A DNA stretch of 64,000 bases, taken from Candidatus Saccharimonadota bacterium (lineage in GTDB: Bacteria > Patescibacteriota > Saccharimonadia > Saccharimonadales > Saccharimonadaceae). Of this stretch, positions 8,772-55,848 are shown piece after piece; position 1 is the stretch's first letter; the number at the start of each line of letters is the position of its first letter. The translations under genes and the position numbers were made by a program. The notes below the pieces were generated by a model. That model made no database searches, was not told the origin of the DNA, and saw only the letters and a list, made by a program, of their open reading frames with translations. The stretch spans positions 769 to 64,768 of the forward strand of contig JAGCVL010000006.1 of assembly GCA_017962365.1 (NCBI GenBank), in the 5' to 3' direction.

Positions 8772-8777
8772 TGCATA

Positions 8778-8799
8778 ATTATAACAGATGTGATATAAT
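8778..8799. promoter_or_regulatory. Back-to-back extended -10 boxes for truB (minus strand, 8778-8786) and rpsO (plus strand, 8791-8799), each 6 nt from its ATG
   Basis: The minus strand reads TGTTATAAT-tatgca-ATG and the plus strand reads TGATATAAT-gaggca-ATG. Confidence 0.6.
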
Positions 8800-8805
8800 G
8801 AGGCA

Positions 8806-9072
8806 ATGATAACAAAAGAGAATAAAGATAAGGCTATTGCCAGCGTCGCTCGAGATAAGAAAGATGTTGGTTCTCCTGAAGTACAAGTGGCTATTCTTAC
8901 GGCTCGCATCAAAGAGGTGACTGAGCACGTTAAGAATAACAAACATGACTTTATGGCCAAAAGAGGTCTGATGCAGATGGTCGGGAAGCGCAAGAAGCTT
9001 CTCAAGTACCTCGAGACGACTGATTTTGAGCTATACAAGAAGACTGTCGCCAAGCTCGGACTTAGGAAATAG
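8806..9072 (+). CDS. rpsO: 30S ribosomal protein S15
   Basis: GSPEVQVAILTARIKEVTEHVKNNKHDFMAKRGLMQMVGKRKKLLKYL is typical of S15. Confidence 0.95.
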   Translation: MITKENKDKAIASVARDKKDVGSPEVQVAILTARIKEVTEHVKNNKHDFMAKRGLMQMVGKRKKLLKYLETTDFELYKKTVAKLGLRK

Positions 9073-9083
9073 TAAAAAAGGAA

Positions 9084-9113
9084 AAACCCGTCGGTAAAAC
9101 CGGCGGGTTTTTG
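9084..9113 (+). terminator. Rho-independent terminator after rpsO
   Basis: The hairpin aaacccgtcgg-taaaa-ccggcgggttt is followed by a T-run. Confidence 0.8.
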
Positions 9114-9128
9114 ATTTTAATGTGCGGG

Positions 9129-9455
9129 TCAGAAGCCAAGATTGGTATTATCCATGGCTTCCTGAAAAGCCTCAAGGAAGTTTGATATGTCTCGATACGT
9201 TAGGTTGTTTTTTTCGAAACTAACTAACACGTCGAAAATATCTCCTCTTTTGGGATTTGGCTTTACCTCGAACGTAGCATTCTCGTCCGTGAGAATGGTT
9301 GTTCTGAAGAAAGCGTTGCCGATGGTGGCAGCCAAAGGATGACCAGACAAAGTCTTTTCATCATTTTGCTGCCGGAAGGATTTAATCTTTATCTCGAGCT
9401 TACGGATTGTCCGCTTATCGTCGAGGTGGTACTCGACGTGAACAACATTGACCAT
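9129..9455 (-). CDS. Hypothetical protein (108 aa) on the opposite strand between rpsO and pnp
   Basis: It has a clean ORF with a strong upstream SD on the minus strand (aagggggtgaaaaaATG). I recognise no family. Confidence 0.55.
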   Translation of the reverse strand: MVNVVHVEYHLDDKRTIRKLEIKIKSFRQQNDEKTLSGHPLAATIGNAFFRTTILTDENATFEVKPNPKRGDIFDVLVSFEKNNLTYRDISNFLEAFQEAMDNTNLGF

Positions 9456-9498
9456 TTTTTCACCCCCTTAGGATCAACTCTTTCTATTATATCACACT

Positions 9499-9527
9499 TT
9501 GCAAAAAAAGTCAAGGGGTGGTATAAT
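9499..9527 (+). promoter_or_regulatory. Sigma70-type promoter for pnp (TTGCAA-17-TGgTATAAT) with a leader of about 85 nt
   Basis: The -35 box is at 9499-9504 and the extended -10 at 9519-9527, with 17-nt spacing. Confidence 0.6.
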
Positions 9528-9611
9528 GAAAACAACATTAACAATAGAGAAGACGGCAGATATGGGGCAAGGGGCCTATACCTGAAGTTTTCTCTAAGAA
9601 AGGATATTTTC

Positions 9612-11789: not shown

Positions 11790-11796
11790 CTAAATA

Positions 11797-11821
11797 AAAG
11801 CTCCCTCTAGGGAGCTTTTAA
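11797..11821 (+). terminator. Rho-independent terminator after pnp
   Basis: Hairpin aaagctccc-tcta-gggagcttt. Confidence 0.75.
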
Positions 11822-11844
11822 AGATATGTTATAATATATAATAT

Positions 11845-13692: not shown

Positions 13693-13710
13693 GTATGATA
13701 TAATAAGCTT

Positions 13711-14478
13711 ATGATAAATAAGCTAAAATGCAAGTTGAAACGTGGGGATACATTGATAGAAGTGACTATTGCGATCGGGATTTTTTCGATGATTGCAATT
13801 ATGGCTGTGCTAGTGGTGAATACTTCGATTTCTGGTACGCAGGCTGCACTTGAAAACACCGTAACTAGAGAAGAGATAAATACTCAAGCTGAGGCACTTA
13901 GATTTATTCAGGCAGCATATGTGGCTGATAAGAATGAAAATAATGAAGAGTCTAGTAAGTACGGTAAACTTTGGCAGGAGATGGTGAGTCTAGCTAGGGA
14001 GCTAGGGAAAGATGAGGTCGATGATGCAAATTTCTTAAATTATCGTCCTGCAACTTGTAGTGACCTGTATGGTGAAAATGGGATTAAACGGCAAGGGGCT
14101 TTCATTTTGAATGTGAGGGCGCTTGATTCGGATGATGTGGATGATATTCTAGTGTCTATTGAAAAGAAGCCGGATATTTTCCAGGCGACTACCTCGTATC
14201 CTAGAATTATATATAAATATGGTGATGGTACGGTGGACTATGGTGAAGTTTTGTATAGTCCAGCTGGTAGTGATGCGGCGATAGATGGCGTAGAGGGGAT
14301 TTATATTGTGGCGGCGAGAGATAAAAATAGCACCAATATAATTTCCGATGATGGCGTAAAACCAGCGTCGGCATTTATTGATTTTTATATTAGAACTTGT
14401 TGGTATACGATGAATGCACAGCGTCCATCGACGATTTCGACTGTGGTGAGACTTTATAATCCAGATTATCAAAACTAA
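13711..14478 (+). CDS. Type IV prepilin-like protein (N-terminal cleavage/methylation-type motif)
   Basis: KRGDTLIEVTIAIGIFSMIAIMAVLVV resembles the G-(F/T)TLIE plus hydrophobic helix signature. Confidence 0.65.
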   Translation: MINKLKCKLKRGDTLIEVTIAIGIFSMIAIMAVLVVNTSISGTQAALENTVTREEINTQAEALRFIQAAYVADKNENNEESSKYGKLWQEMVSLARELGKDEVDDANFLNYRPATCSDLYGENGIKRQGAFILNVRALDSDDVDDILVSIEKKPDIFQATTSYPRIIYKYGDGTVDYGEVLYSPAGSDAAIDGVEGIYIVAARDKNSTNIISDDGVKPASAFIDFYIRTCWYTMNAQRPSTISTVVRLYNPDYQN

Positions 14479-14500
14479 AAAAGCAGCCGTAAGGCTGTCT

Positions 14501-14575
14501 TGGTCTGGGATACCAGGCTCGAACTGGCGACCTCACGCCCCCCAGGCGTGCGCGCTACCACTGCGCCAATCCCAG
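14501..14575 (-). tRNA. tRNA-Pro (anticodon GGG), CCA encoded
   Basis: Hand-folded cloverleaf: acceptor CTGGGAT/ATCCCAG, anticodon stem CACGC/GCGTG, loop CTGGGGG, T-loop TTCGAGC. Confidence 0.9.
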
Positions 14576-14584
14576 TCATTTTAG

Positions 14585-14660
14585 TGGTCTGGGTGACCTG
14601 ACTTGAACAGGCGACCTCGGCGTCCCGAACGCCGCGCGCTACCAACTGCGCCACACCCAG
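14585..14660 (-). tRNA. tRNA-Pro (anticodon CGG), CCA encoded
   Basis: Hand-folded cloverleaf: acceptor CTGGGTG/CACCCAG, anticodon stem CGGCG/CGCCG, loop TTCGGGA. Confidence 0.9.
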
Positions 14661-14667
14661 AAATAAA

Positions 14668-14743
14668 TGGTCTGGGTGACAGGACTTGAACCTGCGACCT
14701 CAACGTCCCAAACGTTGCGCGCTACCAACTGTGCTACACCCAG
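14668..14743 (-). tRNA. tRNA-Pro (anticodon UGG), CCA encoded
   Basis: Hand-folded cloverleaf: acceptor CTGGGTG/CACCCAG, anticodon stem CAACG/CGTTG, loop TTTGGGA. Confidence 0.9.
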
Positions 14744-14807
14744 ATATATTCATTATATCACAAAACTATAAAATATGGTAGAATAGAAATATTAAGGAGA
14801 TAAAAAA

Positions 14808-16736
14808 GTGGTAAGACAAAAGCCGAATGTGAACGTAAATGGCAGTGCCCTAAATGCTGGCAAATCCAATACCGTACGAAGTACGATGTTTTTCTTTATA
14901 ATGATTTTGTTTGCGGTGGCGATAGTAATAAATATGAACGGCAAAGGTACGGCTACAAAGACCGAGGTGCCAATTTCTGAAGTAATACAGCGCGCAAATG
15001 ATCCAGAAGGAAATATTGCAAAGATTACAGTTTCTGGTGATGCGCTCGAGATTACCTTGAAGGGCAAAGATGAGCCAACCGAGACATCACGAAAGGATGC
15101 ATCTGGGACTTTATATGATCAAGGTTTGAAGAATTATTGTGATGGCATGGATGGTGATGAGCTAGCTAAGTGTCAAGAGACTTATCCAGTGATTGAATAT
15201 AAAGAGGATGTAAATGTGTGGGGAGCGGTGCTCGATGTGGCGTTGACGGTGTTGCCGATTATTGCGATTGTGGTGTTTTTCTCTTGGATGATGCGGCAAG
15301 CAAATGCGGCAAGCGACAAGTCTTTGTCATTTGGTAAAGCGAGAGCGCAACTTTATGGTCCAGATAAAAAGAAAGTGACATTTAACGATGTGGCTGGTAA
15401 TGAAGCGGCGAAGCAGGACTTGACTGAAATTGTGGATTTTTTGAAAAATCCTAAAAAGTACGAAAAGTTGGGTGCAAAGATTCCGCGGGGAGTTTTACTG
15501 GCTGGTGACCCGGGTACTGGTAAAACTTTGATGGCGCGAGCAGTGGCTGGAGAAGCAAGTGTGCCATTCTTCTCGATTTCTGGTTCGGAATTTGCGGAGA
15601 TGTTTGTGGGTGTTGGTGCTTCGAGGGTGCGAGATTTGTTTTCCAAAGCCAAGAAAAATGCGCCGTCGATTATCTTTATTGATGAGATTGATGCGGTGGC
15701 ACACAAACGTGACGCGAGGGGCGGAGCTGGTCGCGAAGACGAACAGACTTTAAATCAGATTCTCGTGGAGATGGATGGGTTTGATAATGATTCTGGCGTG
15801 ATTGTGATGGCGGCGACAAACCGAGTTGATATGCTTGATAAGGCACTCTTGCGGCCGGGACGTTTTGACCGACATGTCAATGTGACTCTGCCGGAAAGGA
15901 AAGACCGATTGGAAATTTTGAAGGTGCATTTTAAGGGTAAGCCAGTAGAAGCGGATGTGGACCTTGAGGCGCTTGCGAAGAAAACAGCTGGGTCGAGTGG
16001 TGCGGATCTTGCAAACATTGCAAACGAGGCAGCGATTACGGCGGCGCGTGGTGGACACAAGGCGATATCGAATGCGGATCTGACGGAGGCGTTTGAGCGA
16101 GTGGCGATTGGGCCAGAGCGAAAGTCTAAAGTGATGAATGAAAAAGAGCGCAAGATTACGGCTTATCATGAGGCGGGACATGCGGTAGTGGGGCATGTAT
16201 TGCCGGATTCCGATCCAGTGCACAAGGTGACGATTATCCCGCGTGGTTCGACCGGTGGCGTGACGTGGTTTTTGCCACCAGAAGACAGAAGCTATAAAAA
16301 TATATATGAGTTGAAAGATATATTGGCGCGAGCGATGGGTGGACGCGTGGCTGAAAAGTTGATTTTCGGGACCGATGCGATTACGACTGGTGCGTCTTCG
16401 GATCTTAAGAATGTGGCTGAACTAGCAAAATCGATGATTGTGGAGGAAGGTATGGGCAAAGAGCTTCGTAACCAAGTATTCCCAAGCGAAGCGACTGGAT
16501 ATTATACGATTGCGACTTCGAAACCTTATTCCGAAAAGACTGCAGAAACGATTGATGCTGAAATTAAAGTATTAGCAGATGAAGCTGCAAAGCGGGCGGA
16601 AGAAGTTTTGAAAGCAAATAAGAAAGTATTAGATAAATTGGCAGAAGAATTACTTGCGCATGAGACTTTGGAAGAAAAAGAGCTAGAACCGATTTTGAAA
16701 GAAGCTAAATTACCAACGGTTGCTAAATTACATTAG
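14808..16736 (+). CDS. ftsH: ATP-dependent zinc metalloprotease FtsH
   Basis: Walker A GDPGTGKT, the AAA SRH region and zinc motif HEAGHAV are present. The GTG start has an AAGGAG SD 8 nt upstream. Confidence 0.95.
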
Positions 16737-16744
16737 GAGGTGCC

Positions 16745-19120
16745 ATGGAAAGGCTACTAAAATATTTTGAGCCAGAGAAATATATTTTGAACCTTAAAGT
16801 TGATAAACAACAAAAATATATTGGCGGCGAAGTTACGGTTTTTGGTGAAGCGAAAAATGAGCTTGTAAGATTTCACGCCGTGAATATGAAGATTAAAAAA
16901 GTCTTAGTGGATGATATTCAGACGAAATTTGAACATAAGGATGACTTATTAAATCTTAATATTAAGTTTTCAAAACATGATGATAAGTTTTTAAAACATA
17001 AGATTACGATTTTTTATGATGGGAATTTGAATGAAAATATGGAGGGGGCGTATTTGTCAACATATGAATATGATGGGCATGAAGAAAAAATTGTAGCGAC
17101 GCAGTTTGAGAGCCACTATGCGAGGGAAGCGTTTCCGTGCATTGATGAGCCGGCAGCAAAGGCAGTATTTGAAGTTTCTATCGCTGTGCCGGATGAAGAT
17201 GATATGGTGCTATCCAATATGCCGATGGGCGAGCCGACACCGCGGATGTCAACTTATCTACTAGCGTTTGTGGTGGGGAAGTTTCATGGGAAGACGGTGA
17301 CAAATAGTCATGGGGTGGAGATTACGACCTATTGTGCGCTTAATCAAGATGTGAACTCGGTGGACTTTGCAAATGAAATTGCGGCGCGGTCGCTCGAGTT
17401 TTATGATGATAATTTCGGTGTGTCATATCCGCTGAAAAAATGTGTACAGGTGGCGTTGCCGGATTTTGAAGCAGGGGCGATGGAGAACTGGGGGCTGGTG
17501 ACTTATCGGGAGTCGATGCTGCTTGCGGGGGAGTCGGCGACGATTGGTACGAAGAAAAGTGTGGCGCTCACGGTAGCACATGAGCTGTCGCATCAGTGGT
17601 TTGGCGATCTTGTGACGATGAAATGGTGGGATGATTTGTGGCTTAATGAATCGTTTGCGAGCGTGATGGAATATTTTGCCGTAGATGCGGTGCATCCGGA
17701 ATTTAAAATTTGGGAAGGATTTTTCACGGGCGATGCGCTAGCGGCGCTGAGGCGAGATTGTCTTTCTGGCGTGCAGTCGGTGCATCAGGATGTAAATGAC
17801 CCGGCGGAGATTGCAACGCTGTTTGATGGGGCAATTGTGTATGCAAAGGGGGCGAGACTAATGCTAATGTTGATTCGGCTGATGGGCTGGGATGATTTTT
17901 GCAGGGGACTTAAGAACTATTTTGAAAAATATCAGTATGGGAATACTTGCGGAGATGATTTGTGGGCAGCAATGCAACCATATGCGAAGTTTGATGTGGG
18001 CGAGATGATGCATGCGTTTATTGATCGACCTGGATATCCAGTAGTAAAGAATGAAGGTGTGGATTTTGATAAGATTTCACAGAAGAGATTTTTGCTGGAT
18101 GGGGAGATGGTAAAAACGGATTGGCCTTTGCCGGAGATTCGTGAAGACATGAGCGGGCATTATATCTTGCAATTGTCGGAAGCGGAGTTCAAAGAGAGAC
18201 TAGAAAGATTTGATGAGCTTGGGTTGGAAGAAAAATTACGGTTACTCATAGATAGAGACTTGTTGGCGCGAGCGCTTGAGGTGCCGTATGAATCACTTTT
18301 GCCATTGATTTTGAAATTCCGCAAAGAGTCGAATGCTGCAGTGTGGGATATTATTTTGACGATTGTGTCGGGAATGAAGATTTTCTTTGATGCGGGGTCT
18401 GAGGAAGAAAAAGAGTTTAAGAATTTTGTAGGCGAGTTGGTAGCTTTCAAGTTGAGCGAAATTGGGTTAAAGACGCGTGATGACGATGATGAAAATACGA
18501 TACGGCTGCGGTCTGTGCTTTTGGCGCTAGATTTTTATGCGGAAAAATTGGGTGACCTAGAAAAACTTGCTGGAATGTATAATGAGGATTATACGGCACT
18601 CGATGCGGAAATACGTGGTGACATACTTAGCGCGAAGATGTATTTGGAGCCAGATATGTATGATAAGTATTTGGAAGATTACGAGAAGATGGCCGATCCG
18701 GAGATTAAGTTCGAGCTACTATTTGCTATGACTTTGTCACATGATAGTGGGGTGCTGACAAAAACAATGAAGCTACTTCGTCAAATCGAAATAGTAAAAC
18801 CGCAAGACCAATTGTATCTTTTTGTGTGGCTTTATCGTAACCCGATTATTAAAAAACAAGTGTTTGAGTGGTTGACGCAAAATTGGGAATTTGTTGAAGG
18901 TTTGGCTGGTGATAAATCGATCGAAAGTTATCCTAGATATACGGCAAGCGGTGTGAGGACGGAAACAGAATATGATGCGTGGCATGAATTCTTTGAGCCA
19001 ATGAGTAAAAATCCGGCACTTTCGCGGGCGATTGAAGTTGGTGAAAATGAAATTAGGGCAAGGCTAAGGCTGATTCAGAAAAATCAAGTCGCCATACACA
19101 ATGCGCTTAAAAAATTTTAA
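16745..19120 (+). CDS. pepN: M1-family aminopeptidase N
   Basis: GAMENWG is present, together with HELSHQWFG...WLNESFA (HEXXH-18-E). Confidence 0.85.
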   Translation: MERLLKYFEPEKYILNLKVDKQQKYIGGEVTVFGEAKNELVRFHAVNMKIKKVLVDDIQTKFEHKDDLLNLNIKFSKHDDKFLKHKITIFYDGNLNENMEGAYLSTYEYDGHEEKIVATQFESHYAREAFPCIDEPAAKAVFEVSIAVPDEDDMVLSNMPMGEPTPRMSTYLLAFVVGKFHGKTVTNSHGVEITTYCALNQDVNSVDFANEIAARSLEFYDDNFGVSYPLKKCVQVALPDFEAGAMENWGLVTYRESMLLAGESATIGTKKSVALTVAHELSHQWFGDLVTMKWWDDLWLNESFASVMEYFAVDAVHPEFKIWEGFFTGDALAALRRDCLSGVQSVHQDVNDPAEIATLFDGAIVYAKGARLMLMLIRLMGWDDFCRGLKNYFEKYQYGNTCGDDLWAAMQPYAKFDVGEMMHAFIDRPGYPVVKNEGVDFDKISQKRFLLDGEMVKTDWPLPEIREDMSGHYILQLSEAEFKERLERFDELGLEEKLRLLIDRDLLARALEVPYESLLPLILKFRKESNAAVWDIILTIVSGMKIFFDAGSEEEKEFKNFVGELVAFKLSEIGLKTRDDDDENTIRLRSVLLALDFYAEKLGDLEKLAGMYNEDYTALDAEIRGDILSAKMYLEPDMYDKYLEDYEKMADPEIKFELLFAMTLSHDSGVLTKTMKLLRQIEIVKPQDQLYLFVWLYRNPIIKKQVFEWLTQNWEFVEGLAGDKSIESYPRYTASGVRTETEYDAWHEFFEPMSKNPALSRAIEVGENEIRARLRLIQKNQVAIHNALKKF

Positions 19121-20055
19121 GATTTGACGATGGTGCCAGCGTGTCCGGCGAGGGCTGTTTTTAGATTTTCAATATTGGTGATGATGCCGATGCGGGATTT
19201 TTTGGCAAAAATAGCGGCGGCTTCAACTTTTGGTAGCATGGAGCCGGCTTTGAAATAACCATACTTTGTCAGATTTGCGATTTCTTTGGCTGTGACTTGA
19301 TGTAGGGCCTGTTGGTCTGGCAGGCCATAATTAATATAAACATTTGGTACGGCGGTGACGGAGACGAAGATGTCGGCTTTTACGAGTTCGGCAAGTTTTT
19401 CGGCGGCAAAATCTTTATCAATGACAGCATCGATGCCTTTTAGACGCTTTGTGATTTTGGTGCGATAAACTGGAATACCACCGCCGCCAGCAGCGATGAC
19501 GATGATGCCACTAGAAACCATTTCGGTGATGGCTTTTTTCTCGACGATGTCGATTGGTTTTGGCGATGCAACTACGCGACGCCAGCCGCGGCCGGAGTCT
19601 TCTTTTACGGTCCAGCCTTTTTCGCGGGCGAGCTTTTTAGCCTCGGATTCGGAATAGAATTGGCCGATTGGTTTGGTTGGGTTTTTGAATGCAGGATCGT
19701 TTCGGTCAACTACAACTTGCGACACTACAGTGGCGACTTCGGTAGATTTGCCGCGCTTTAAGAAAGCGTTACTGATGGCCTGGGTGAGCCAGTAGCCGAT
19801 TTGGCCTTGGCTCATAGCGACTGCCGTCTCGAGTGGCATGGCTGGAGCTTTGTCGGTCGCGGCGGTCTCTTCATGGATTAAAATATTGCCAACTTGTGGG
19901 CCATTGCCGTGAGCGATGACGATTTCGTAGTTTGATGCTAGATCGGCGATGATTTTGCCGACGCTTTCAGCAACTTTTTTTTGAGCTTCAGCAGTGGCTT
20001 CGCCGTTTTTTTGTAAGGCGTTGCCGCCGAGTGCGAGTACTACGCGTTTTTTCAT
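19117..20055 (-). CDS. arcC: Carbamate kinase
   Basis: VVLALGGNAL and HGNGPQVG are present and the length is typical of carbamate kinase. The start overlaps the pgi stop (ATGA). Confidence 0.9.
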   Translation of the reverse strand: MKKRVVLALGGNALQKNGEATAEAQKKVAESVGKIIADLASNYEIVIAHGNGPQVGNILIHEETAATDKAPAMPLETAVAMSQGQIGYWLTQAISNAFLKRGKSTEVATVVSQVVVDRNDPAFKNPTKPIGQFYSESEAKKLAREKGWTVKEDSGRGWRRVVASPKPIDIVEKKAITEMVSSGIIVIAAGGGGIPVYRTKITKRLKGIDAVIDKDFAAEKLAELVKADIFVSVTAVPNVYINYGLPDQQALHQVTAKEIANLTKYGYFKAGSMLPKVEAAAIFAKKSRIGIITNIENLKTALAGHAGTIVKS

Positions 20056-21206
20056 TGGACCTCCATGAGTTTTTTAAGTTCGGATTTATAGGCTTCTACT
20101 CCCGGCTGGTCAAAAGGATTGACGCCGAAAAGTTTTGCGCTGATGGCGCAGGCCATTTCGAAGAAGTAAATGAGCTCGCCGAAACCGTATTCGTCGTAGG
20201 ATGGGACATCGAGGGATAAGACTGGGATGCCGCCGGCGGAGTGAGCTTTTTTGACGGCTTCTACGACTTTGGAATTTAGGTCGTCGGTAGGGAAGTCTAT
20301 GATGGTTTCCCAAAGATTGCGCCGACCGTCTTGCATAAATTGACCGAGCGAATGTAGGTCGGTGGAGTAAACAACGCTGGCTGGCCAAATGCCTTGTCCG
20401 TTTTTGCCTTCACTTTCGCCAAAGAGCTGCTTTAGCCATTCGTTGAAATACATGGTGGCTGGCTCAAAACTGGCGAAAACTTCGGTGTCATAACCGCGCT
20501 CGCCAAGATCGTGACGCATAAAAGCGTACTTTAAAATTGGGTTTTTGGCGAATTTGGGGTCTGATTCGTCTAGGCTTTTGGCCATCTCGTAGGCGCCGCT
20601 AAGAAGTGCGTCGATGTCTATACCGGCAGCTGCGAGCGGAAGCAAACCGACAGCTGAAAATACCGAATAGCGTCCGCCGATATTGTCTGGTACGACGAAT
20701 CTTTTGTAGCCTTTTTCTACGGCTTCGTCGTGGAGGGTGCCGTGGGTTGCGTCGGTGGTGGCGTAGATGCGCTTGAATGCTTCTGACTCGCCATATTTTT
20801 CGATTAATTTTTCCTTGAAAGCGTTGAAGGCAATGGCTGGCTCCAAAGTGGTGCCGGATTTTGAGATGACGTTGACTGAAAAATCTTTGCCTTCTATAGC
20901 GGCGAGGGATTTATCTAGCTCGCGGTGGCTAAGGGAATTGCCGGCATAGATGATGTCGATGTCTTTTTCGCCAAGTGCTTCGATGATGGCGCGGTGTCCG
21001 AGGTAGGAGCCACCGATTCCGATACAGACTAGAACTTCGGACTCAGAGCGGATTTTTTCGGCGGCTTTTTTGATGCGCGCGAGTTCTTTTTGGTCTATTT
21101 CAAGTGGTAAATTAGCCCAGCCGCCCATTGGGTCAGCTTTGATTAATCCGATGAGCTCTTTTGCTCTGGCTTCATTGACTTTGGTTTCGAAATTTACATC
21201 TATCAT
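20052..21206 (-). CDS. pgi: Glucose-6-phosphate isomerase (short form)
   Basis: IGIGGSYLG, RYSVFSAVGLLP and ESEGK motifs are present. Confidence 0.88.
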   Translation of the reverse strand: MIDVNFETKVNEARAKELIGLIKADPMGGWANLPLEIDQKELARIKKAAEKIRSESEVLVCIGIGGSYLGHRAIIEALGEKDIDIIYAGNSLSHRELDKSLAAIEGKDFSVNVISKSGTTLEPAIAFNAFKEKLIEKYGESEAFKRIYATTDATHGTLHDEAVEKGYKRFVVPDNIGGRYSVFSAVGLLPLAAAGIDIDALLSGAYEMAKSLDESDPKFAKNPILKYAFMRHDLGERGYDTEVFASFEPATMYFNEWLKQLFGESEGKNGQGIWPASVVYSTDLHSLGQFMQDGRRNLWETIIDFPTDDLNSKVVEAVKKAHSAGGIPVLSLDVPSYDEYGFGELIYFFEMACAISAKLFGVNPFDQPGVEAYKSELKKLMEVQ

Positions 21207-21338
21207 AATGCCTCCATTGGTATCATTATAGCAGATTGTGGGGGTTTGTGGTAGAGCTTATATTGACTTTTTAGGCCAAATGTGATATAATGGAAAGATA
21301 GGGGCGTAAATTAACCAACGAACAGGGGAGGTGATAAT

Positions 21339-21656
21339 ATGCATGAGTTCGTAGTGCGATTTGATGGTGAGATGCCGCGCGAAGAAGTGGAGAAGTTCTT
21401 GTCGAAGAGCGAGAACAACGACCGTACAGTGTACGTGATAAATGCGTACACCAAAGAAGTAAAAAATAAAGACGGTATTTATGATCAGAGAAAGTGGGGG
21501 GATTTCGTTGTGTTTATATACAATGGAGATGATAATATGAAAATATTATCCTTCATGAGGGATTATGCGGGCATAGACCCGAAAAACCCACACTTGCAGC
21601 CACATCCGCACTTTATTGATTATTACGACAATTGTTATCAAAAAAAAGAAATTTAA
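21339..21656 (+). CDS. Hypothetical protein (105 aa)
   Basis: The ORF has a GGGGAGG SD upstream. I recognise no family. Confidence 0.5.
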   Translation: MHEFVVRFDGEMPREEVEKFLSKSENNDRTVYVINAYTKEVKNKDGIYDQRKWGDFVVFIYNGDDNMKILSFMRDYAGIDPKNPHLQPHPHFIDYYDNCYQKKEI

Positions 21657-21662
21657 CCCCTT

Positions 21663-21692
21663 AGCCTCGGAGTGCTTTACCCCGAGGCTTTT
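21663..21692 (+). terminator. Terminator hairpin (agcctcgg...ccgaggct + TTT)
   Basis: The inverted repeat was read directly. Confidence 0.65.
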
Positions 21693-21712
21693 AAATGCTA
21701 TAATTATAGCAT

Positions 21713-21800
21713 GCCCGCTTGGCGGAATTGGTAGACGCGCTAGCTTCAGGTGCTAGTGGCCGCAAGGCTGTAAGAGTTCAAATCTCTTAGTGGGCACCAG
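21713..21800 (+). tRNA. tRNA-Leu (anticodon CAG), long variable arm, CCA encoded
   Basis: Acceptor GCCCGCT/AGTGGGC, anticodon stem CTAGC/GCTAG, loop TTCAGGT, T-loop TTCAAAT. Confidence 0.9.
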
Positions 21801-21805
21801 GTGAT

Positions 21806-21828
21806 CACGCACTATGTGCGTGTTTTTT
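21806..21828 (+). terminator. Terminator after tRNA-Leu (cacgcac-tat-gtgcgtg + T6)
   Basis: Read directly. Confidence 0.75.
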
Positions 21829-21841
21829 GTGTTTCTAAAAC

Positions 21842-21870
21842 TTGAAAAAAGCGTAAACGTGATATATAAT
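21842..21870 (+). promoter_or_regulatory. Sigma70-type promoter of the arc operon (TTGAAA-17-TATAAT)
   Basis: The -35 box is at 21842-21847 and the -10 box at 21865-21870. Confidence 0.6.
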
Positions 21871-21921
21871 GGAAGGTAAAAGAAGGGCATCACATGAAAA
21901 TAAATAGAAAGGGTGGCAACG

Positions 21922-22914
21922 ATGAATTTTAAGGGGCGAGATTTTTTAAGAATTCTTGATTTTAGTGAGGGGGAATTGCACCATATGCTAGACGTGGCGA
22001 AGAAATTTAAAGAGATGAAGCGCGCGGGGCAGAATCATAAATATTTTCCAGAAAAAAATATCGTGATTGTGTTTGAAAAGACCTCAACCAGGACGAGGTG
22101 TGCGTTTGAGGTAGCTGGGTATGACCTTGGAATGGGAGTGACCTATCTTGATCCGACGGGATCACAGATGGGGCACAAGGAATCAATCGCGGATACAGCT
22201 AGGGTGCTGGCTAGGTTTTATGATGGGATTGAGTTTCGTGGATTTAAGCAGGAGACGGTAGATACTTTGGCAAAATATGCCGATGTGCCGGTATGGAATG
22301 GCTTGACCGATGCGTGCCATCCGACTCAGGCGCTAGCTGATTTTATGACGATGGAAGAAAAATTGGGCGATCTAAAGGGCAAGACTTTGGCGTTTGTGGG
22401 CGACACTCATAATAATGTGTCGAACTCACTGATGGCGATGAGCGCAAAAATGGGCGTAAACTACATCGCGTGTGGTCCGGTGGATAGGCGGCCGTCTGAT
22501 GAGGTTATCGCGGCATGCCAACCGATTGCTGAGAAAAACGGCTCCACGATTACGATTACAGACGATGTGCATGCGTTGGATGGGAAAGCGGATGCGATTT
22601 ATGCCGATGTATGGCTATCACTTGGTGAAGATAAAGAAAAATGGGGCGAGAGAATTGAACAACTGAGGCCGTACCAAGTAAATATGGAAATGATGAACCG
22701 AGCGCGGCCAGGTGCGATTTTCTTACATTGTTTGCCGTCATTTCACGACACAAATACTTCGATTGGGCAAGATATTTTTGAGAGATTTGGACTTTCGGAA
22801 ATGGAAGTGACAAATGAAGTGTTTGAGTCGGAACGATCGGTGGTGTTTGATGAAGCGGAAAATCGCATGCACACAATTAAAGCGGTGATGTATTTAACTT
22901 TGTGGGATAAATAA
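21922..22914 (+). CDS. arcB: Ornithine carbamoyltransferase (catabolic context)
   Basis: STRTRCAFE, HPTQALAD and FLHCLP motifs are present. The ATG at 21922 is preferred over the GTG at 21913. Confidence 0.9.
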   Translation: MNFKGRDFLRILDFSEGELHHMLDVAKKFKEMKRAGQNHKYFPEKNIVIVFEKTSTRTRCAFEVAGYDLGMGVTYLDPTGSQMGHKESIADTARVLARFYDGIEFRGFKQETVDTLAKYADVPVWNGLTDACHPTQALADFMTMEEKLGDLKGKTLAFVGDTHNNVSNSLMAMSAKMGVNYIACGPVDRRPSDEVIAACQPIAEKNGSTITITDDVHALDGKADAIYADVWLSLGEDKEKWGERIEQLRPYQVNMEMMNRARPGAIFLHCLPSFHDTNTSIGQDIFERFGLSEMEVTNEVFESERSVVFDEAENRMHTIKAVMYLTLWDK

Positions 22915-22923
22915 AGGAGGAAA

Positions 22924-24153
22924 ATGAAAAACGTAATTACAAATTTTAGCGAAATCGCACCACTCAAAAAAGTATTGATGCATCGGCCGGGTGATGAATT
23001 CTTAAATCTGACGCCGAATACTTTGGAAAGGTTACTATTTGATGATATTCCGTATCTGAAAATTGCGCAGCAGGAGCATGATGCGTACGCGAATGCCTTG
23101 AGAGCAGAAGGCGTGGAAGTCGTGTATCTTGTAGACTTAGTCGCGGAAGCGATTGAAGCTGGCGGGAAGACCGTGCGACGTAAGTTTTTGGAGCAATTTA
23201 TCGCGGAAGCTGGGGTGACTTCGCCAAAGATTGCGAGACATTGTTATGAGTTTTTGAATAAAATTCGTGACACGAAAGATATGATAAGAAAATGCATTGC
23301 TGGGATTGACATTTCTGAGCTTAAAAAACTTGGGAGTGTGTCTGGGTTTTATGCGACGAGGGATACGGGGCGGATGATAATTGATCCGATACCGAATCTT
23401 TATTTCCAGCGCGACCCGATGGCGACGATTGGGCATGGTGCAACGCTTCACAAAATGTGGTCGGTAACGCGGACGAGGGAGTCGATCTTCATGGAATATG
23501 TTTATCAGTATCATCCATTTTATGATGACGTGAAGTTGTATTACGATCGGAACGAGCCATATTGCATTGAGGGTGGTGATATTCAGGTGCTATCGAAAGA
23601 AGTGGTGGCGATCGGGATTTCACAACGGACGGAGCCGGATGCGATTGCAGATTTTGCGAAGAGATTATTTAAAGATAAGTCGAATGCATTTAAGTATGTG
23701 CTCGCGATTGATATTCCGGACGAGAGGAGCTTTATGCACCTTGATACCGTGATGACACAGGTGGATGTAAATAAGTTTGCGGTGCAGGATGCGATTATGG
23801 ATATTTCGACGATTTATGAAATCACGGCCGGTAAAGGTGGCGAGGTTGAGATTCTTGAGATTCATCAAAGCCTTGCAAAAGTACTAGAAAAATATTTGCA
23901 TTTGAATCATGTAGAATTAATTAAATGCGGAAATGGTCGCAGGATTGATGCCGAGCGTGAGCAGTGGAGCGACGGAGTAAATCTCCTTTGTATTCGTCCG
24001 GGCGTGGTGGTAGCGTATGATAGAAATTATGTTACGAATGAGACTTTAAGGAAACACGGAGTCAAAGTGATAGAACTTCCAAGTTCGGAGCTTTCGCGCG
24101 GGCGAGGGGGCTCGCATTGTATGTCAATGGCGCTGGTGCGGGAGGAGGTGTAA
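22924..24153 (+). CDS. arcA: Arginine deiminase
   Basis: The length is about 409 aa. FQRDP and MHLDTVMTQVD are present, as is the C-terminal catalytic Cys motif GGSHCMSMAL. Confidence 0.93.
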   Translation: MKNVITNFSEIAPLKKVLMHRPGDEFLNLTPNTLERLLFDDIPYLKIAQQEHDAYANALRAEGVEVVYLVDLVAEAIEAGGKTVRRKFLEQFIAEAGVTSPKIARHCYEFLNKIRDTKDMIRKCIAGIDISELKKLGSVSGFYATRDTGRMIIDPIPNLYFQRDPMATIGHGATLHKMWSVTRTRESIFMEYVYQYHPFYDDVKLYYDRNEPYCIEGGDIQVLSKEVVAIGISQRTEPDAIADFAKRLFKDKSNAFKYVLAIDIPDERSFMHLDTVMTQVDVNKFAVQDAIMDISTIYEITAGKGGEVEILEIHQSLAKVLEKYLHLNHVELIKCGNGRRIDAEREQWSDGVNLLCIRPGVVVAYDRNYVTNETLRKHGVKVIELPSSELSRGRGGSHCMSMALVREEV

Positions 24154-51987: not shown

Positions 51988-52668
51988 ATGGAACAAGGAA
52001 ATGGTGTGGGGGCTGGTCAGACGGGGGTCGTCGGTGGTGCTAATCCGATGGGGGCTGAGCAGGTAGTATCAGAGCAGGTGACGGTGGCGCAGGTAGAGCC
52101 AGCGGCGCCAGTAACTCCAGTAGAGCCAGTGGCTCCTGGGTCTATGGTGGCAGAGCCGAAAGCATCAAAGAAGGGTCACGGAATGGCGATTGGGCTAATT
52201 TTCTGTCTTTTGCTTGCGGCTGGTGGGGTCGGCTTTGGTGTCTGGGCGTGGATGGATGGAAATACGCAGAAGGATGCGCTGAATTCGCAGATTAATACTT
52301 TGAAAAAACAAAATAGCGATTTATTGAGCCAGATATCAGAGTTAAACGAAAAAATTGCGGAACTTGAGAATGACGATGCGGATGAGGCGGTGCCGGAGAA
52401 TGGAAATGCCGATAGTGGCGAGAGTACGAGCAACAATAATACTTCCGTGATAAGGGGCGAGGTGGTCGATGGTGTATTTTATGTGAAAGACAGCAGTGGT
52501 AATATTTTGGCACAAAGTAGCAAAACCGATATTACCGAGGTGGTGTCTTGCGATAGCATAGAAAATGGTAGTGCCATGAAATGTTCCGTGACGGCTTCTG
52601 ATGGTAGTGGATGGTTTATTTACAATGTGTCAGAAAAGACTTTGACATCAAGCTTTGATGCGAATTAG
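51988..52668 (+). CDS. Hypothetical single-pass membrane protein with a coiled-coil (paralog of 32219-32881)
   Basis: It has a low-complexity N-terminus, a TM helix (AIGLIFCLLLAAGGVGFGVWAW) and the coiled-coil segment LNSQINTLKKQNSDLLSQISELNEKIAELE. Confidence 0.55.
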   Translation: MEQGNGVGAGQTGVVGGANPMGAEQVVSEQVTVAQVEPAAPVTPVEPVAPGSMVAEPKASKKGHGMAIGLIFCLLLAAGGVGFGVWAWMDGNTQKDALNSQINTLKKQNSDLLSQISELNEKIAELENDDADEAVPENGNADSGESTSNNNTSVIRGEVVDGVFYVKDSSGNILAQSSKTDITEVVSCDSIENGSAMKCSVTASDGSGWFIYNVSEKTLTSSFDAN

Positions 52669-52733: not shown

Positions 52734-52760
52734 TTAGCACTCTTGACTGAAGAGTGCTAA
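52734..52760. promoter_or_regulatory. CIRCE operator (HrcA binding site), an exact match to the consensus
   Basis: TTAGCACTC (52734-52742), a 9-nt spacer (ttgactgaa) and GAGTGCTAA (52752-52760). Confidence 0.85.
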
Positions 52761-52771
52761 TTTGCTACAAT
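52743..52771 (+). promoter_or_regulatory. clpC promoter TTGACT-17-TGcTACAAT; the -35 box lies inside the CIRCE spacer
   Basis: The -35 box is at 52743-52748 and the extended -10 at 52763-52771. The ATG is at 52781. Confidence 0.7.
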
Positions 52772-52780
52772 GAGGGTATT

Positions 52781-55249
52781 ATGCAAGCGGAATTTAGTGA
52801 AATAATGAGTCATTTGTCTGAAAACGCGCGGTTTGCGCTACAAAAGGCAGATTACTATGCAAAGAGATATAATAATGGTTATATGGGGACCGAGCATCTC
52901 CTCATGGGCATCATGGCGATGGATACTTCGACGGGTGCCAGGATGCTCCGCGATGAGGGGGCGACAGTGGATGATGTTGAGAAATCGCTAAATAAGGTAG
53001 CGGTGGAAGTGCCAGGGAGCGATATGGCGATGATGTCTTTGTCGGAGCCGGTGATTTTGACGTTTCGGATGGCGCAGAATTTTGTGATTGAGCAAGGTCT
53101 AAGCGTGATTGGGACGGAACATATGCTTTTTGCTCTCCTATCTCAGCCGAACTCTAGAGCGTCTTTAATTCTCCAAGGTCTGAAAGTTGATAACAATAAG
53201 GTGCTGGACGAGATTGAATCGCTGGTGGAAAAGCAGACTAAGGAAGAGCAATTAAAAGCCGAGAAGGCGAAATACGTCAAGAGTTCGAATTTGAAGTTTT
53301 TGAAGAAGTTTGGCAAGGATTTGACGGAAGAGGCGAAGCTCGGACATCTCGACACGGTGATTGGGCGCGAGAATGAAATTGAGCGGGTGGTGACGGTGTT
53401 GTCTCGGCGCACGAAATCTAACCCAGTATTGATTGGTGAGGCTGGTGTCGGTAAAACGGCGATTGTGGAAGGTCTTGCGATGCGAATCGTGAAAAACGAA
53501 GTGCCAGGAAATTTGATTGGTAAGCATATTTACCAAGTGGATTTGTCGGGGCTGGTGGCTGGTACGAAGTTCCGCGGGGAGTTTGAGGAGCGGATTAAAG
53601 GCATCATTGACGAAGCGGTGGGGGATGATACGGTGCTGCTATTTATCGACGAGATTCATCTACTTTGTGGGGCGGGAAATTCGGAAGGTTCGATGGACGC
53701 GGCGAATATTTTGAAGCCGGCGCTCGCGCGTAACCAAATCAATTTGATTGGTGCGACGACGCTCGATGAATATCGCAAAACGATTGAAAAGGATAAGGCT
53801 CTCTCGCGTCGGTTCCAGACGGTGATGGTGGAGGAGCCTTCGGCGGCGGTAACGCTTCGGATTCTCAAGGGCATCAAGAAGCATTATGAAAAGCATCACG
53901 GTGTGACGATTCCGGATGAGGCGCTTGAAACTGCGATTGTGATGTCTGAGCGGTATATTAATGATAGATTTATGCCAGATAAGGTGATTGATGTGGTTGA
54001 CGAGGCGTCGGCGATTTGTAAAGTAGCGGCCGACAAAAAAGGTGGTGGTAAGTATAAGAAGATGAAAATTGAGCTGAAATCTTTGGAGGAAAAAATCACC
54101 GAAGCGGCGGAGGCAGAAGATTATGAAAAGGCTGCAGAATATAAAACTGAGGCTGCGAGGTTGTCAAAAGAAATTAAAAAGCTCGAAAAGTCTGGTGTGA
54201 AAGAAACCGTGACGCCGAAACTTTCGGAAGAAAATTTGGCGACGGCGGTGTCTTTAAAAACCGGAATTCCGGTATCAAAAGTGCATGGTTCGGAAATGAA
54301 GATGCTGATGGGGCTTGAGGATGAACTATCAAAGTCGGTAATTGGGCAGAAAGAAGCGATTGATGCGGTGGCGAAAGCGATTCGGCGCGGAAGGTCTGGG
54401 ATTGCGGATTCGAGGCGGCCGATTGGTTCTTTCCTATTTATGGGCCCGACTGGTGTAGGTAAGACGGAGTTAGCTAGGGTGATTGCGCGGGAAGTTTTCG
54501 GCGGCGAGAATGCTTTGGTAAAAATCGATATGAGCGAGTTTGGCGAGAAACATAATGTGTCGCGGCTCGTGGGTGCGCCGGCGGGATATATTGGCTATGA
54601 CGATGGCGGAAAACTAACTGAAGCGGTGCGACGAAAACCTTACTCGGTGATTTTGTTTGATGAGATTGAAAAGGCGCACCCAGATGTATTTAACTTGCTG
54701 TTGCAGATTTTGGAAGATGGCGTACTGACGGATGGTCAGGGTAACAAAATTAAGTTTAATAATACGATCGTGATTTTGACATCAAATCTCGGGTCGGCGG
54801 ACATGTACCGCGAGGGTGAACTTGGGTTTACGGCTAAGACGGCGAAGGACAAGAAGGCATTGGCGGAAGAATACGAAGAGAACAAGTCTTATGCGATGAA
54901 AGCGCTGAAGAAAGTGATGCGTCCGGAATTAATCAATAGGCTGGATTCGATTTTGGTATTCCATGCGCTAACTAGGAGCGACGTGGAAAAGATTTTTGAC
55001 AATTTGATTGATGATCTCAAACGGCGTCTCGCGACGAAGGGCGTGGGGATTAAAGTAAACGAGAAAGCGAAGAATTATTTGATCGAGAAAGGTTACGACC
55101 CGAAAAACGGGGCGCGGCCACTCAGACGTTGTATTGAGGATGAGGTAGAGTCGCTACTTTCCGAAAAGTTGATTGCGGGAGAGCTTACTAAAGGCGATAT
55201 TCCAGTTCTAAAATATAGCAATGGTAAATTGAAGTTAGAAAAAGCATAA
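52781..55249 (+). CDS. clpC: ATP-dependent Clp protease ATP-binding subunit ClpC
   Basis: It has N-terminal Clp repeats, two Walker A motifs ([18 protein letters not shown]), a UVR-like segment ([16 protein letters not shown]) and an LGF ClpP-docking loop. It is adjacent to clpP. Confidence 0.9.
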
Positions 55250-55266
55250 TAATGAAAGGAGAAAAT

Positions 55267-55848
55267 ATGAAAGATTATCTAGTGCCGACGGTGGTGGAAG
55301 AGACCAATAAAGGCGAGCGAGCGTATGATATCTATTCGCGGCTTTTAAATGACCGAATTATATTTCTTGGCGAGGATGTGAATTCGCATACGGCGAATTT
55401 AGTGGTGGCGCAGCTATTATATCTTGCACACGAAGACCCAAAGAAGCCGATTAAACTTTACATTAATTCACCTGGCGGGTCGGTATATGATGGACTGGCG
55501 ATTATTGACACGATGAATTATATCGAGCCGGATGTGGAGACGATCGGGATTGGCTTGCAGGCGTCGATGGGCGCGATGCTTCTTTCGTGTGGCGCAAAGG
55601 GTAAGAGATATTGTCTGCCGAATGCGCGAATTATGATTCATCAACCATCTTCTGGAACGGAAGGAAAGATTACGGATCAGGAAATTATGTTGAGGGAAGG
55701 TGTATTCTTGAAAAAGCGGCTGGCGGAGATTTTTGCAAAGAATACCGGTAAAGATTTGAAGCAGGTGGAAAAAGATATGGATCGCGATAATTGGATGAGT
55801 GCGGAAGAAGCAAAAGCATACGGAATTATTGACGAAATTATAAAATAA
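55267..55848 (+). CDS. clpP: ATP-dependent Clp protease proteolytic subunit
   Basis: [19 protein letters not shown] (Ser) and IMIHQP (His) are present. The ATG at 55267 follows an AAAGGAG SD. Confidence 0.95.

What the first reader, a model, noticed from the sequence alone, without database searches (positions are those of the whole stretch)
52734..52771. Exact CIRCE (HrcA) operator sitting on the clpC-clpP promoter
- **Observation.** TTAGCACTC-N9-GAGTGCTAA is reproduced perfectly. Its 9-nt spacer (ttgactgaa) contains the -35 hexamer TTGACT of a textbook promoter (17-nt spacing to TGcTACAAT).
- **Why it is unusual.** CIRCE/HrcA classically controls groESL and dnaK operons. In Firmicutes clpC and clpP are normally under CtsR.
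- **Interpretation.** An HrcA-controlled Clp protease would be a rewired heat-shock regulon in a reduced genome.
Basis: partly seen in the sequence, partly recalled or inferred. Interest (0 to 1): 0.62.

Follow-up and report, generated by a model that had tools for sequence, protein, structure and literature searches.

The report
HrcA operator on Saccharibacteria clpC-clpP promoter
A perfect copy of the bacterial heat-shock operator CIRCE is built into the promoter of the clpC-clpP protease operon of this ultrasmall Saccharibacteria genome and is kept in all 80 related species examined, so this lineage very probably controls its main protein-degrading machine with the chaperone repressor HrcA.

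Summary
TTAGCACTC-N9-GAGTGCTAA lies at 52734-52760. The -35 box TTGACT sits inside its spacer, 17 nt upstream of TGcTACAAT. The clpC start codon follows 9 nt after the -10 box, and clpP follows clpC in the same operon.

The organism is a ruminant-gut Candidatus Saccharibacteria (CPR), not a Firmicute. All 80 related species carry the same operator at the same place. The arms are almost invariant, while the flank and the 3' part of the spacer drift freely. Where clpP has been separated from clpC by 3 kb, it has its own CIRCE promoter.

A metagenome scan for this operator-promoter design found it in front of hrcA, dnaK, groES, groEL, dnaJ, clpB, hsp20, clpP and clpC. The HrcA proteins of the phylum are short, about 235 aa. 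They keep the winged helix and the GAF-like domain but lack the inserted domain of the solved HrcA.

No CtsR box is present.

Verdict: a real, conserved HrcA operator on a Clp protease operon. It is a new variant of a known system and of moderate interest. Precedents exist: lon in Mycoplasma and clpP in Streptococcus salivarius.

The parts
52734..52742 (+). CIRCE left arm TTAGCACTC
   Evidence: Exact match. It carries 1.4-2.0 bits per position across 81 unique orthologous promoters.
52743..52751 (+). CIRCE spacer ttgactgaa. Its first six bases, TTGACT (52743-52748), are the -35 box.
   Evidence: In relatives the first 5 spacer positions are conserved as TTGAC or TTGCA, and the last 4 vary freely at 0.1-0.7 bits.
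52752..52760 (+). CIRCE right arm GAGTGCTAA
   Evidence: Exact match. It carries 1.2-2.0 bits per position across relatives.
52763..52771 (+). Extended -10 box TGcTACAAT, 17 nt after the -35 box
   Evidence: TG precedes the -10 in 43 of the scored relatives.
52778..52781 (+). Predicted transcription start (inferred). The mRNA would be leaderless or have a leader of at most 3 nt.
   Evidence: The start codon lies 9 nt after the -10 box here. It lies 6 nt after it in 40 relatives and 7-11 nt after it in 33, counting the window. No RNA data cover the 5' end.
52781..55249 (+). clpC (822 aa): Clp_N, AAA+ D1, UVR-type middle motif, AAA+ D2, D2-small, LGF ClpP-docking loop
   Evidence: Pfam scan and motif check. 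The identical protein occurs on 5 metagenome contigs. Small metatranscriptome pieces lie inside the gene.
55255..55261 (+). Shine-Dalgarno AAAGGAG for clpP, in the 17-nt gap after the clpC stop codon
   Evidence: Sequence read. There is no promoter or second CIRCE between clpC and clpP.
55267..55848 (+). clpP (193 aa, alternative start 55252), co-transcribed with clpC
   Evidence: Pfam CLP_protease, E = 3.5e-76. Gene callers used the start at 55267.

Best explanation
The inverted repeat at 52734-52760 is a working operator for the heat-shock repressor HrcA. It is fused to the core promoter of a clpC-clpP operon. The -35 hexamer lies inside the 9-nt spacer, and the right arm ends 2 nt before the extended -10 box. 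A bound HrcA dimer would therefore cover the -35 region and most of the promoter spacer and keep RNA polymerase off. When unfolded proteins titrate the chaperones that keep HrcA active, HrcA would leave the operator. In Bacillus that chaperone is GroEL/ES. The ClpC unfoldase and ClpP peptidase would then be made together with the chaperones, from an mRNA that is leaderless or nearly so. The operator, the promoter geometry, the operon structure, the conservation and the existence of cognate HrcA proteins in the phylum are shown here. HrcA binding, heat induction, the transcription start and the presence of hrcA in this particular genome are inferred.
For: The match is exact and unique in the window.

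All 80 related species, with ClpC 70-97% identical, carry CIRCE at the same place, most of them about 45 nt before the clpC start. In an anchored comparison of 81 unique promoters the arms carry 1.2-2.0 bits per position. Most of the 60-nt upstream flank carries 0-0.4 bits, and the 3' half of the spacer carries 0.1-0.7 bits. Several species have symmetric changes in both arms, such as CTAGCACTC...GAGTGCTAG.

The operator always overlaps the -35 box, in two layouts: 66 with the -35 at spacer positions 1-6 and 15 with TTGACA straddling the right arm.

In L078 and L081 clpP lies 3 kb from clpC, and in L080 and L082 about 1.1-1.2 kb. In all four it has its own CIRCE promoter. In about 20 other species with a 1 kb gene between, clpP has only a ribosome-binding site.

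A metagenome scan for TTAGCACTC-TTGAC-N4-GAGTGCTAA returned loci with 74 scorable downstream genes: HrcA 27, DnaK 12, ClpP 5, ClpC 4, GroES 3, Hsp20 2, ClpB 2, DnaJ 1, GroEL 1.

The HrcA-like proteins hit Pfam HrcA and HrcA_DNA-bdg and PDB 1STZ. Each of two searches capped at 8000 candidates found all 8000 to be relatives, and several are labelled Candidatus Saccharibacteria.

Of 9 Saccharibacteria hrcA loci reached through the protein rather than the operator, 7 have CIRCE upstream.

No CtsR box lies upstream of clpC.

In the cultivated relative TM7x, the gene next to radA that is annotated 'Clp protease ClpX' changes in the same direction as groES, groEL, dnaK, dnaJ and grpE (supplement of PMC10768705). 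This is weak evidence.
Against: hrcA was not found in the window or within 10 kb of clpC in any relative. The rest of this genome could not be searched. I did not reach an HrcA from the window's own family: every hrcA locus retrieved comes from a Saccharibacterium whose LepA is only 54-66% identical to the window's. Two lineages (P0140, P0141) have hrcA without CIRCE upstream. There are no heat-shock, binding or transcription-start data. The one metatranscriptome that holds the locus shows only three small low-depth pieces inside clpC. The phylum's HrcA lacks the inserted domain of the solved protein, so how it pairs on a palindrome is unknown.
Confidence: 0.85

Rival explanations
1. The palindrome is bound by a regulator other than HrcA, for example an unrelated repressor that took over the CIRCE sequence in this lineage. 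HrcA, if present, would act elsewhere.
For: hrcA was not shown in this genome. The phylum's HrcA is atypical because it lacks the inserted domain.
Against: The site is the exact consensus for HrcA. The same site precedes hrcA itself and the classical HrcA targets dnaK and groES in the phylum. The DNA-binding winged helix of the short HrcA aligns with 1STZ residues 15-99 and keeps the conserved SSATIR and QPHTSAGRIPTDKGYR motifs.
Confidence: 0.05
2. The inverted repeat acts as a nucleic-acid hairpin: a terminator or stabiliser for the upstream gene (51988-52668), not as a protein operator.
For: As RNA the region folds stably: -20.7 kcal/mol, z = -3.9. The repeat lies 66 nt after the upstream stop codon.
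Against: No U-tract follows the stem. In relatives the upstream gene and flank differ completely, while the repeat stays tied to clpC and to its -35 and -10 boxes. Selection keeps the base identities, not just the pairing. One-sided changes occur at the stem ends (for example L032 and L033). The promoter inside the repeat means the clpC mRNA does not contain the hairpin.
Confidence: 0.04
3. The match is a chance or relic sequence without function.
For: None beyond the fact that a single site in a single genome is not proof.
Against: Only 0.02 matches are expected per window. The site is conserved in 80 of 80 species against a flank that is almost entirely unconserved.
Confidence: 0.01

Closest known systems
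Class I heat-shock regulation by HrcA/CIRCE in Bacillus subtilis (hrcA-grpE-dnaK-dnaJ and groES-groEL operons)
   Same: The 9-N9-9 operator sequence is identical. hrcA is autoregulated in an hrcA-grpE-dnaK arrangement in Saccharibacteria. The expected logic, from established knowledge, is release of the repressor when chaperones are busy (Mogk et al. 1997, as cited in PMC7737663; consensus as given in PMC3842655).
   Different: The target here is a ClpC-ClpP protease operon. The operator encloses the -35 box, whereas in Bacillus, from my own knowledge, it lies at or after the transcription start. It is therefore not part of the mRNA. The transcript is probably leaderless. The phylum's HrcA is about 235 aa, against about 340 aa, and lacks the inserted domain.
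HrcA regulon of Mycoplasma pneumoniae (genome-reduced Mollicute)
   Same: In a reduced genome HrcA controls proteases as well as chaperones: lon, pepA and pip together with dnaK, dnaJ, clpB and groEL/ES. A CIRCE element lies upstream of lon (PMC7737663).
   Different: Mycoplasma pneumoniae has no ClpP system. There the protease under HrcA is Lon. It is a different phylum, and as far as I know its HrcA is the canonical long form.
Dual CtsR + HrcA control of clpP in Streptococcus salivarius (Chastanet and Msadek 2003, J Bacteriol 185:683)
   Same: It is a clpP gene with a CIRCE element. I know this paper only from its title, as cited in PMC3842655, and from my own memory. The paper itself is not held.
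   Different: There CtsR is the main Clp regulator and HrcA an addition. Here no CtsR box is present and both clpC and clpP depend on the single CIRCE promoter.
CtsR regulon (class III heat-shock genes: ctsR-mcsA-mcsB-clpC, clpP, clpE) of Firmicutes
   Same: The same genes, clpC and clpP, are placed under a stress-released repressor.
   Different: No CtsR heptad repeat lies upstream of clpC in the window or its relatives: only two weak matches, in L060 and L074. No ctsR, mcsA or mcsB lies next to clpC.

Membership tests
CIRCE operator (HrcA-binding site) | 9-bp inverted repeat TTAGCACTC, 9-nt spacer, GAGTGCTAA | tested here: met
   Exact match at 52734-52760, unique in the window.
CIRCE operator (HrcA-binding site) | It lies in the promoter or 5' region of a stress gene, and its position is conserved | tested here: met
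   It overlaps the -35 box of the clpC promoter. The position is the same in 80 of 80 relatives.
CIRCE operator (HrcA-binding site) | The cognate hrcA gene is in the same genome | not testable with these tools
hrcA is not in the window or in the clpC flanks of relatives. HrcA is abundant elsewhere in the phylum.
CIRCE operator (HrcA-binding site) | HrcA binds the site and transcription rises on heat shock or loss of HrcA | not testable with these tools
   This needs a gel shift or footprint and RNA measurements. The only RNA run gives three small pieces inside clpC.
Classical class I heat-shock operon (groE or dnaK) | The controlled genes are groES-groEL or hrcA-grpE-dnaK-dnaJ | tested here: not met
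   The controlled genes are clpC and clpP.
CtsR regulon | A tandem heptad CtsR box (A/GGTCAAA-N-A-N-A/GGTCAAA) upstream of clpC or clpP | tested here: not met
   No match in the window. Among the 80 relatives there are two weak matches at 2 mismatches.
CtsR regulon | ctsR (with mcsA and mcsB) is encoded, usually just upstream of clpC | tested here: inconclusive
   They are absent next to clpC: the upstream genes are an unknown 226-aa protein and an AMP-binding enzyme. The rest of the genome could not be searched.
ClpC-type Hsp100 unfoldase (partner of ClpP) | Clp_N domain, two AAA+ modules, a short UVR-type middle domain, and a hydrophobic-Gly-Phe loop for docking on ClpP | tested here: met
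   Pfam domains. Walker A motifs at residues 219 and 555, and LGF at 681-683.
HrcA protein family (short form found in Saccharibacteria; not encoded in the window) | N-terminal winged helix plus a C-terminal GAF-like domain | tested here: met
   Pfam PF03444 and PF01628. The profile aligns to 1STZ residues 15-138 and 235-329. The model has pLDDT 89.6. Foldseek's best hit is 1STZ_A, with TM 0.81 on the query.
HrcA protein family (short form found in Saccharibacteria; not encoded in the window) | The inserted domain between the two halves of the GAF-like domain (1STZ residues about 139-234). Its depositors described it as the dimerising domain; that is from my memory, not checked here. | tested here: not met
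   About 9 residues stand in its place. The TM score normalised on the target is only 0.61. Pfam PF01628 matches only profile positions 106-215 or 107-215 in the two closest Saccharibacteria proteins, and from position 83 or 72 in two others.

The most novel reading that the evidence does not exclude
In Saccharibacteria, and perhaps much of the CPR, a minimal HrcA may be the single master regulator of the whole protein-quality-control network. This HrcA has a winged helix and a GAF-like domain but no inserted domain. It would act through an operator built into the core promoter, often of leaderless genes, and would govern chaperones (hrcA-grpE, dnaK, dnaJ, groES/EL, hsp20, clpB) together with the ClpC-ClpP protease. 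Protein degradation and refolding capacity would then be set by one sensor. ClpCP might close the loop by degrading unfolded HrcA.
Probability: 0.35. Interest if true: 0.6.

Novelty: new variant of a known kind. Interest (0 to 1): 0.45.

Why it matters
Regulation in CPR bacteria is almost unstudied. The paper library holds no paper that treats HrcA in Saccharibacteria, Patescibacteria or the candidate phyla radiation: the few that contain both words are on unrelated topics. This locus offers a concrete regulon that can be tested. One recognisable operator would tie the only ClpP-based protease of an ultrasmall epibiont to the chaperone stress sensor. It shows how a reduced genome can run proteostasis with one repressor where Firmicutes use two or three. 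It also gives a clean promoter model for the phylum: a -35 box inside the operator, an extended -10 box and a leaderless start. This model could help annotation and genetic tool building in cultivable Saccharibacteria. It is an extension of a well-known system, not a new principle.

Tried and rejected
- **hrcA near clpC.** tblastn with 12 diverse HrcA queries found nothing in the window or in the 80 relatives' loci.
- **Reaching the HrcA of the window's own family.** I ran three homology searches, one representative search, cluster look-ups and nine contig look-ups. All recovered Saccharibacteria hrcA loci, but only from lineages whose LepA is 54-66% identical to the window's.
- **Laying the metagenome runs that hold this strain** on hrcA references. 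On L155 the hrcA part was too divergent to attract contigs at 80% likeness, and only conserved dnaK segments were covered.
- **Transcription start from RNA.** One metatranscriptome holds three short pieces inside clpC only.
- **Viral contig scan** for the operator found 0 hits.
- **First structure model,** from 26 close sequences, was unusable at pLDDT 51. A more diverse alignment fixed this.
- **Rejected readings:** terminator hairpin, because there is no U-tract and the repeat stays linked to clpC, not to the upstream gene; CtsR control, because there is no box; a chance match.

Full report
**1. The observation**

The window holds one exact copy of TTAGCACTC-N9-GAGTGCTAA, at 52734-52760 on the + strand. 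Even with three mismatches allowed it is the only match in 64 kb. Shuffled sequence gives 0.02 matches per window.

The spacer, ttgactgaa, starts with TTGACT (52743-52748). Seventeen bases later comes TACAAT (52766-52771), preceded by TG. The consensus scan lists this as a 10-of-12 promoter with an extended -10 box.

The first ATG in frame is at 52781, nine bases after the -10 box.

**2. The genes**

The ORF from 52781 to 55249 encodes an 822-aa Hsp100 protein. It has Clp_N, two AAA+ modules, a UVR-type middle motif and the D2-small domain. It also has an LGF loop at residues 681-683, which is the ClpP-docking tripeptide. It is therefore ClpC-like and not ClpB-like.

Seventeen bases after its stop codon, behind an AAAGGAG ribosome-binding site, starts clpP (55267-55848; Pfam CLP_protease, E = 3.5e-76). 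There is no promoter-like site of comparable quality and no second CIRCE between the two genes. They form one operon.

Upstream lie an unknown 226-aa protein and, on the other strand, an AMP-binding enzyme. No ctsR, mcsA or mcsB is present there.

**3. The organism**

The ClpC protein finds its closest relatives (70-97% identity) in 80 species-level genomes. Almost all are labelled Candidatus Saccharibacteria or Candidatus Nanosyncoccus, and most come from ruminant guts. The identical protein occurs on metagenome contigs from gut samples.

So this is a CPR bacterium with a reduced genome, not a Firmicute.

**4. Conservation**

Every one of the 80 relatives has a CIRCE element with at most 3 mismatches upstream of clpC. 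In 73 of the 81 promoters, counting the window, it lies about 45 nt before the start codon. No other CIRCE occurs in the flanks of up to 10 kb on each side, except in front of clpP in four species.

I compared the 81 unique promoter sequences anchored on the element:
- the two arms carry 1.2-2.0 bits per position;
- most of the 60 nt upstream carry 0-0.4 bits, with only the two bases next to the left arm reaching about 1 bit;
- the last four spacer positions carry 0.1-0.7 bits.

This is the footprint of a protein-binding site, not of shared ancestry. Some species changed both outer positions symmetrically (CTAGCACTC...GAGTGCTAG). Others changed only one side.

Two layouts exist. In 66 promoters, including the window, the -35 box (TTGAC or TTGCA) occupies spacer positions 1-6. 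In 15, which include the loci labelled Nanosynbacter and Nanosyncoccus nanoralicus, TTGACA straddles the spacer and the right arm, which then reads CAGTGCTAA. In both layouts the operator covers the -35 box.

**5. clpP follows the operator**

The arrangement of clpP in the 80 relatives:
- In 49 relatives clpP is adjacent to clpC, as in the window.
- In about 20 relatives a 1 kb gene for a membrane protein with an HExxH motif sits between them. There clpP has a ribosome-binding site but no promoter or CIRCE, so the operon has three genes.
- In four relatives clpP has its own CIRCE promoter with 0-2 mismatches: L078 and L081, where 3 kb separates the genes, and L080 and L082, where about 1.1-1.2 kb does.
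- In six relatives no clpP was found in the locus (in at least three the locus ends at or within clpC), and one hit was partial.

Keeping the operator when the operon is split argues that control of both genes is under selection.

**6. The regulon and the repressor**

I therefore scanned the metagenome collection for the operator with the -35 box inside it: TTAGCACTC-TTGAC-N4-GAGTGCTAA.

Of the 74 scorable downstream genes:

| Downstream gene | Count |
|---|---|
| HrcA-like | 27 |
| DnaK | 12 |
| ClpP | 5 |
| ClpC | 4 |
| Zn-ribbon | 4 |
| GroES | 3 |
| Hsp20 | 2 |
| ClpB | 2 |
| DnaJ | 1 |
| GroEL | 1 |
| other or unknown | 13 |

The HrcA-like proteins are short, mostly 217-245 aa. They hit Pfam HrcA and HrcA_DNA-bdg. 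Each of two homology searches capped at 8000 candidates found all 8000 to be relatives, and several are named Candidatus Saccharibacteria by NCBI. The third search found 6055 relatives.

Typical loci read lepA-(gmk or adk)-CIRCE-hrcA-grpE-dnaK-dnaJ. Nine hrcA loci were reached through the protein and not through the operator. Seven of them have CIRCE upstream. Two lineages (P0140, P0141) do not.

None of these loci belongs to the window's own family: their LepA is 54-66% identical to the window's. Whether hrcA is present in this genome therefore remains an inference. The inference rests on the near-perfect conservation of the operator arms across the 80 relatives.

**7. The short HrcA**

A profile of 36 short HrcAs aligns to the solved Thermotoga maritima HrcA (1STZ) in two blocks: residues 2-124 to 15-138, and 134-233 to 235-329. 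About 96 residues of 1STZ are thus replaced by about 9.

An AlphaFold model built on that alignment is confident, with pLDDT 89.6 and pTM 0.86. Its best structural match is 1STZ_A, with TM 0.81 normalised on the query but 0.61 on the target.

The short form therefore keeps the winged helix and the GAF-like domain and lacks the inserted domain. From memory, the 1STZ authors called this the dimerising domain. I could not check that, because no paper describing the HrcA domains was found. How the short form pairs on a palindrome is open.

**8. Mechanism**

The -35 box lies inside the operator, and the right arm ends 2 nt before the extended -10 box. A bound repressor must therefore compete with RNA polymerase for the promoter. 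This geometry is shown; the competition is inferred.

The start codon follows the -10 box by 6 nt in 40 relatives and by 7-11 nt in 33 sequences, counting the window at 9 nt. It follows by 55-81 nt, with a ribosome-binding site, in six scored relatives; a seventh, L014, also has a long leader but was not scored. Most of these mRNAs are therefore probably leaderless.

Unlike the Bacillus case, as I know it, the operator is not transcribed from this promoter. It cannot act on mRNA stability.

The signal is assumed to be the classical one, in which chaperone availability sets HrcA activity (Mogk et al. 1997, as cited in PMC7737663).

**9. Rival readings**

A hairpin role is unlikely. The RNA fold is stable. 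However, no U-tract follows it, the upstream gene differs between species, and base identity is conserved, not just pairing.

Control by CtsR is not supported, because there is no box.

A different protein binding the same consensus cannot be excluded without biochemistry. It is unlikely, because the same site precedes hrcA and the classical HrcA targets.

**10. What is known**

HrcA control of proteases in a reduced genome has a precedent in Mycoplasma pneumoniae, where it controls lon, pepA, pip and clpB (PMC7737663). A CIRCE-controlled clpP is reported for Streptococcus salivarius, together with CtsR (Chastanet and Msadek 2003). That paper is cited in PMC3842655 but is not itself held.

The library has no paper that treats HrcA in Saccharibacteria, Patescibacteria or the candidate phyla radiation. 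Three papers contain both 'HrcA' and 'Saccharibacteria' and one contains both 'HrcA' and 'Patescibacteria', but the ones listed are on unrelated topics. None contains 'HrcA' with 'candidate phyla radiation'.

In TM7x transcriptomes the chaperone genes and a Clp ATPase gene next to radA move together (PMC10768705 supplement). clpB and clpP also rise together (bioRxiv 2022.03.25.485537). This is weak, circumstantial support.

Earlier notes of this scan describe the same arrangement in many other Saccharibacteria genomes. I used them as leads. Here I re-derived independently the conservation, the regulon census and the missing domain of the short HrcA.

**11. Verdict**

This is a real, strongly conserved HrcA-type operator fused to the promoter of a clpC-clpP operon. 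It is a lineage-wide trait of host-associated Saccharibacteria and not a peculiarity of this genome. It is a new variant of a known regulatory system and of moderate interest.

Confidence in the functional reading is 0.85. What remains is to show hrcA in this genome and to obtain expression or binding data.

Noticed in passing
L149:9300-10250 (hrcA), also L117, L125, L155, L204, L221-L227: Saccharibacteria and other CPR contigs encode a short HrcA of about 217-245 aa. It lacks the roughly 96-residue inserted domain of the solved HrcA (1STZ residues 139-234). NCBI labels these proteins only 'transcriptional regulator', 'DeoR family' or 'HTH domain-containing protein'.
   Followed up: yes
L084:1-72, L101:1668-1739, L105:192-264, L152:2905-2978 and 8 other dnaK loci: All 12 Saccharibacteria-type dnaK promoters found carry two CIRCE elements in tandem, 45-47 nt apart start to start. 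One covers the -35 box and the other lies just after the -10 box. Some hrcA promoters (L115, L125, L204, L221, L226) also have a weaker second element.
   Followed up: partly
L082:12512-13522, L078:14594-15691, and about 20 further relatives (for example L044, L055, L070): In many relatives a gene of about 335-365 aa lies between clpC and clpP, inside the CIRCE-controlled operon. It encodes a membrane-anchored protein with an HExxH motif (AHELLHAAWD). The window lacks it.
   Followed up: partly
window 52766-52783, and the same place in L004-L083: The clpC start codon lies 6-11 nt after the -10 box in 73 of 81 promoters, which suggests leaderless mRNAs. Seven relatives (L010, L014, L028, L030, L040, L050, L080) instead have a long leader (55-81 nt in the six scored); those shown carry a ribosome-binding site.
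   Followed up: partly
L006 (CAVDHS010000004.1): A contig labelled 'Bulleidia sp.' carries a Saccharibacteria clpC (86% identical to the window's) with the CIRCE promoter. This is probably a binning error. It could conceivably hint at an epibiont-host pairing.
   Followed up: no
L087, L090, L116, L143: The same CIRCE-with-TTGAC design precedes small FmdB-type zinc-ribbon genes (Pfam Zn_ribbon_8) on contigs that do not look like Saccharibacteria.
   Followed up: no
L216:9900-10711, L219:6860-7711: Two Saccharibacteria lineages with near-complete long-read contigs (about 0.7-0.9 Mb) have a stand-alone hrcA after lepA. It has no CIRCE upstream (at most 4 mismatches allowed) and no grpE-dnaK after it.
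   Followed up: partly
window 19117-24153: Judging by their N-terminal sequences, these genes look like an arginine deiminase pathway: carbamate kinase on the - strand, ornithine carbamoyltransferase and arginine deiminase. This would fit a Saccharibacteria lifestyle. I did not check it with family models.
   Followed up: no
window 8097-16736: The window reads truB(-), rpsO, pnp, lepA, a pilin-like gene and ftsH. Other Saccharibacteria have ftsH-murJ-lepA-(gmk or adk)-hrcA. The hrcA neighbourhood has therefore been rearranged in this lineage.
   Followed up: partly
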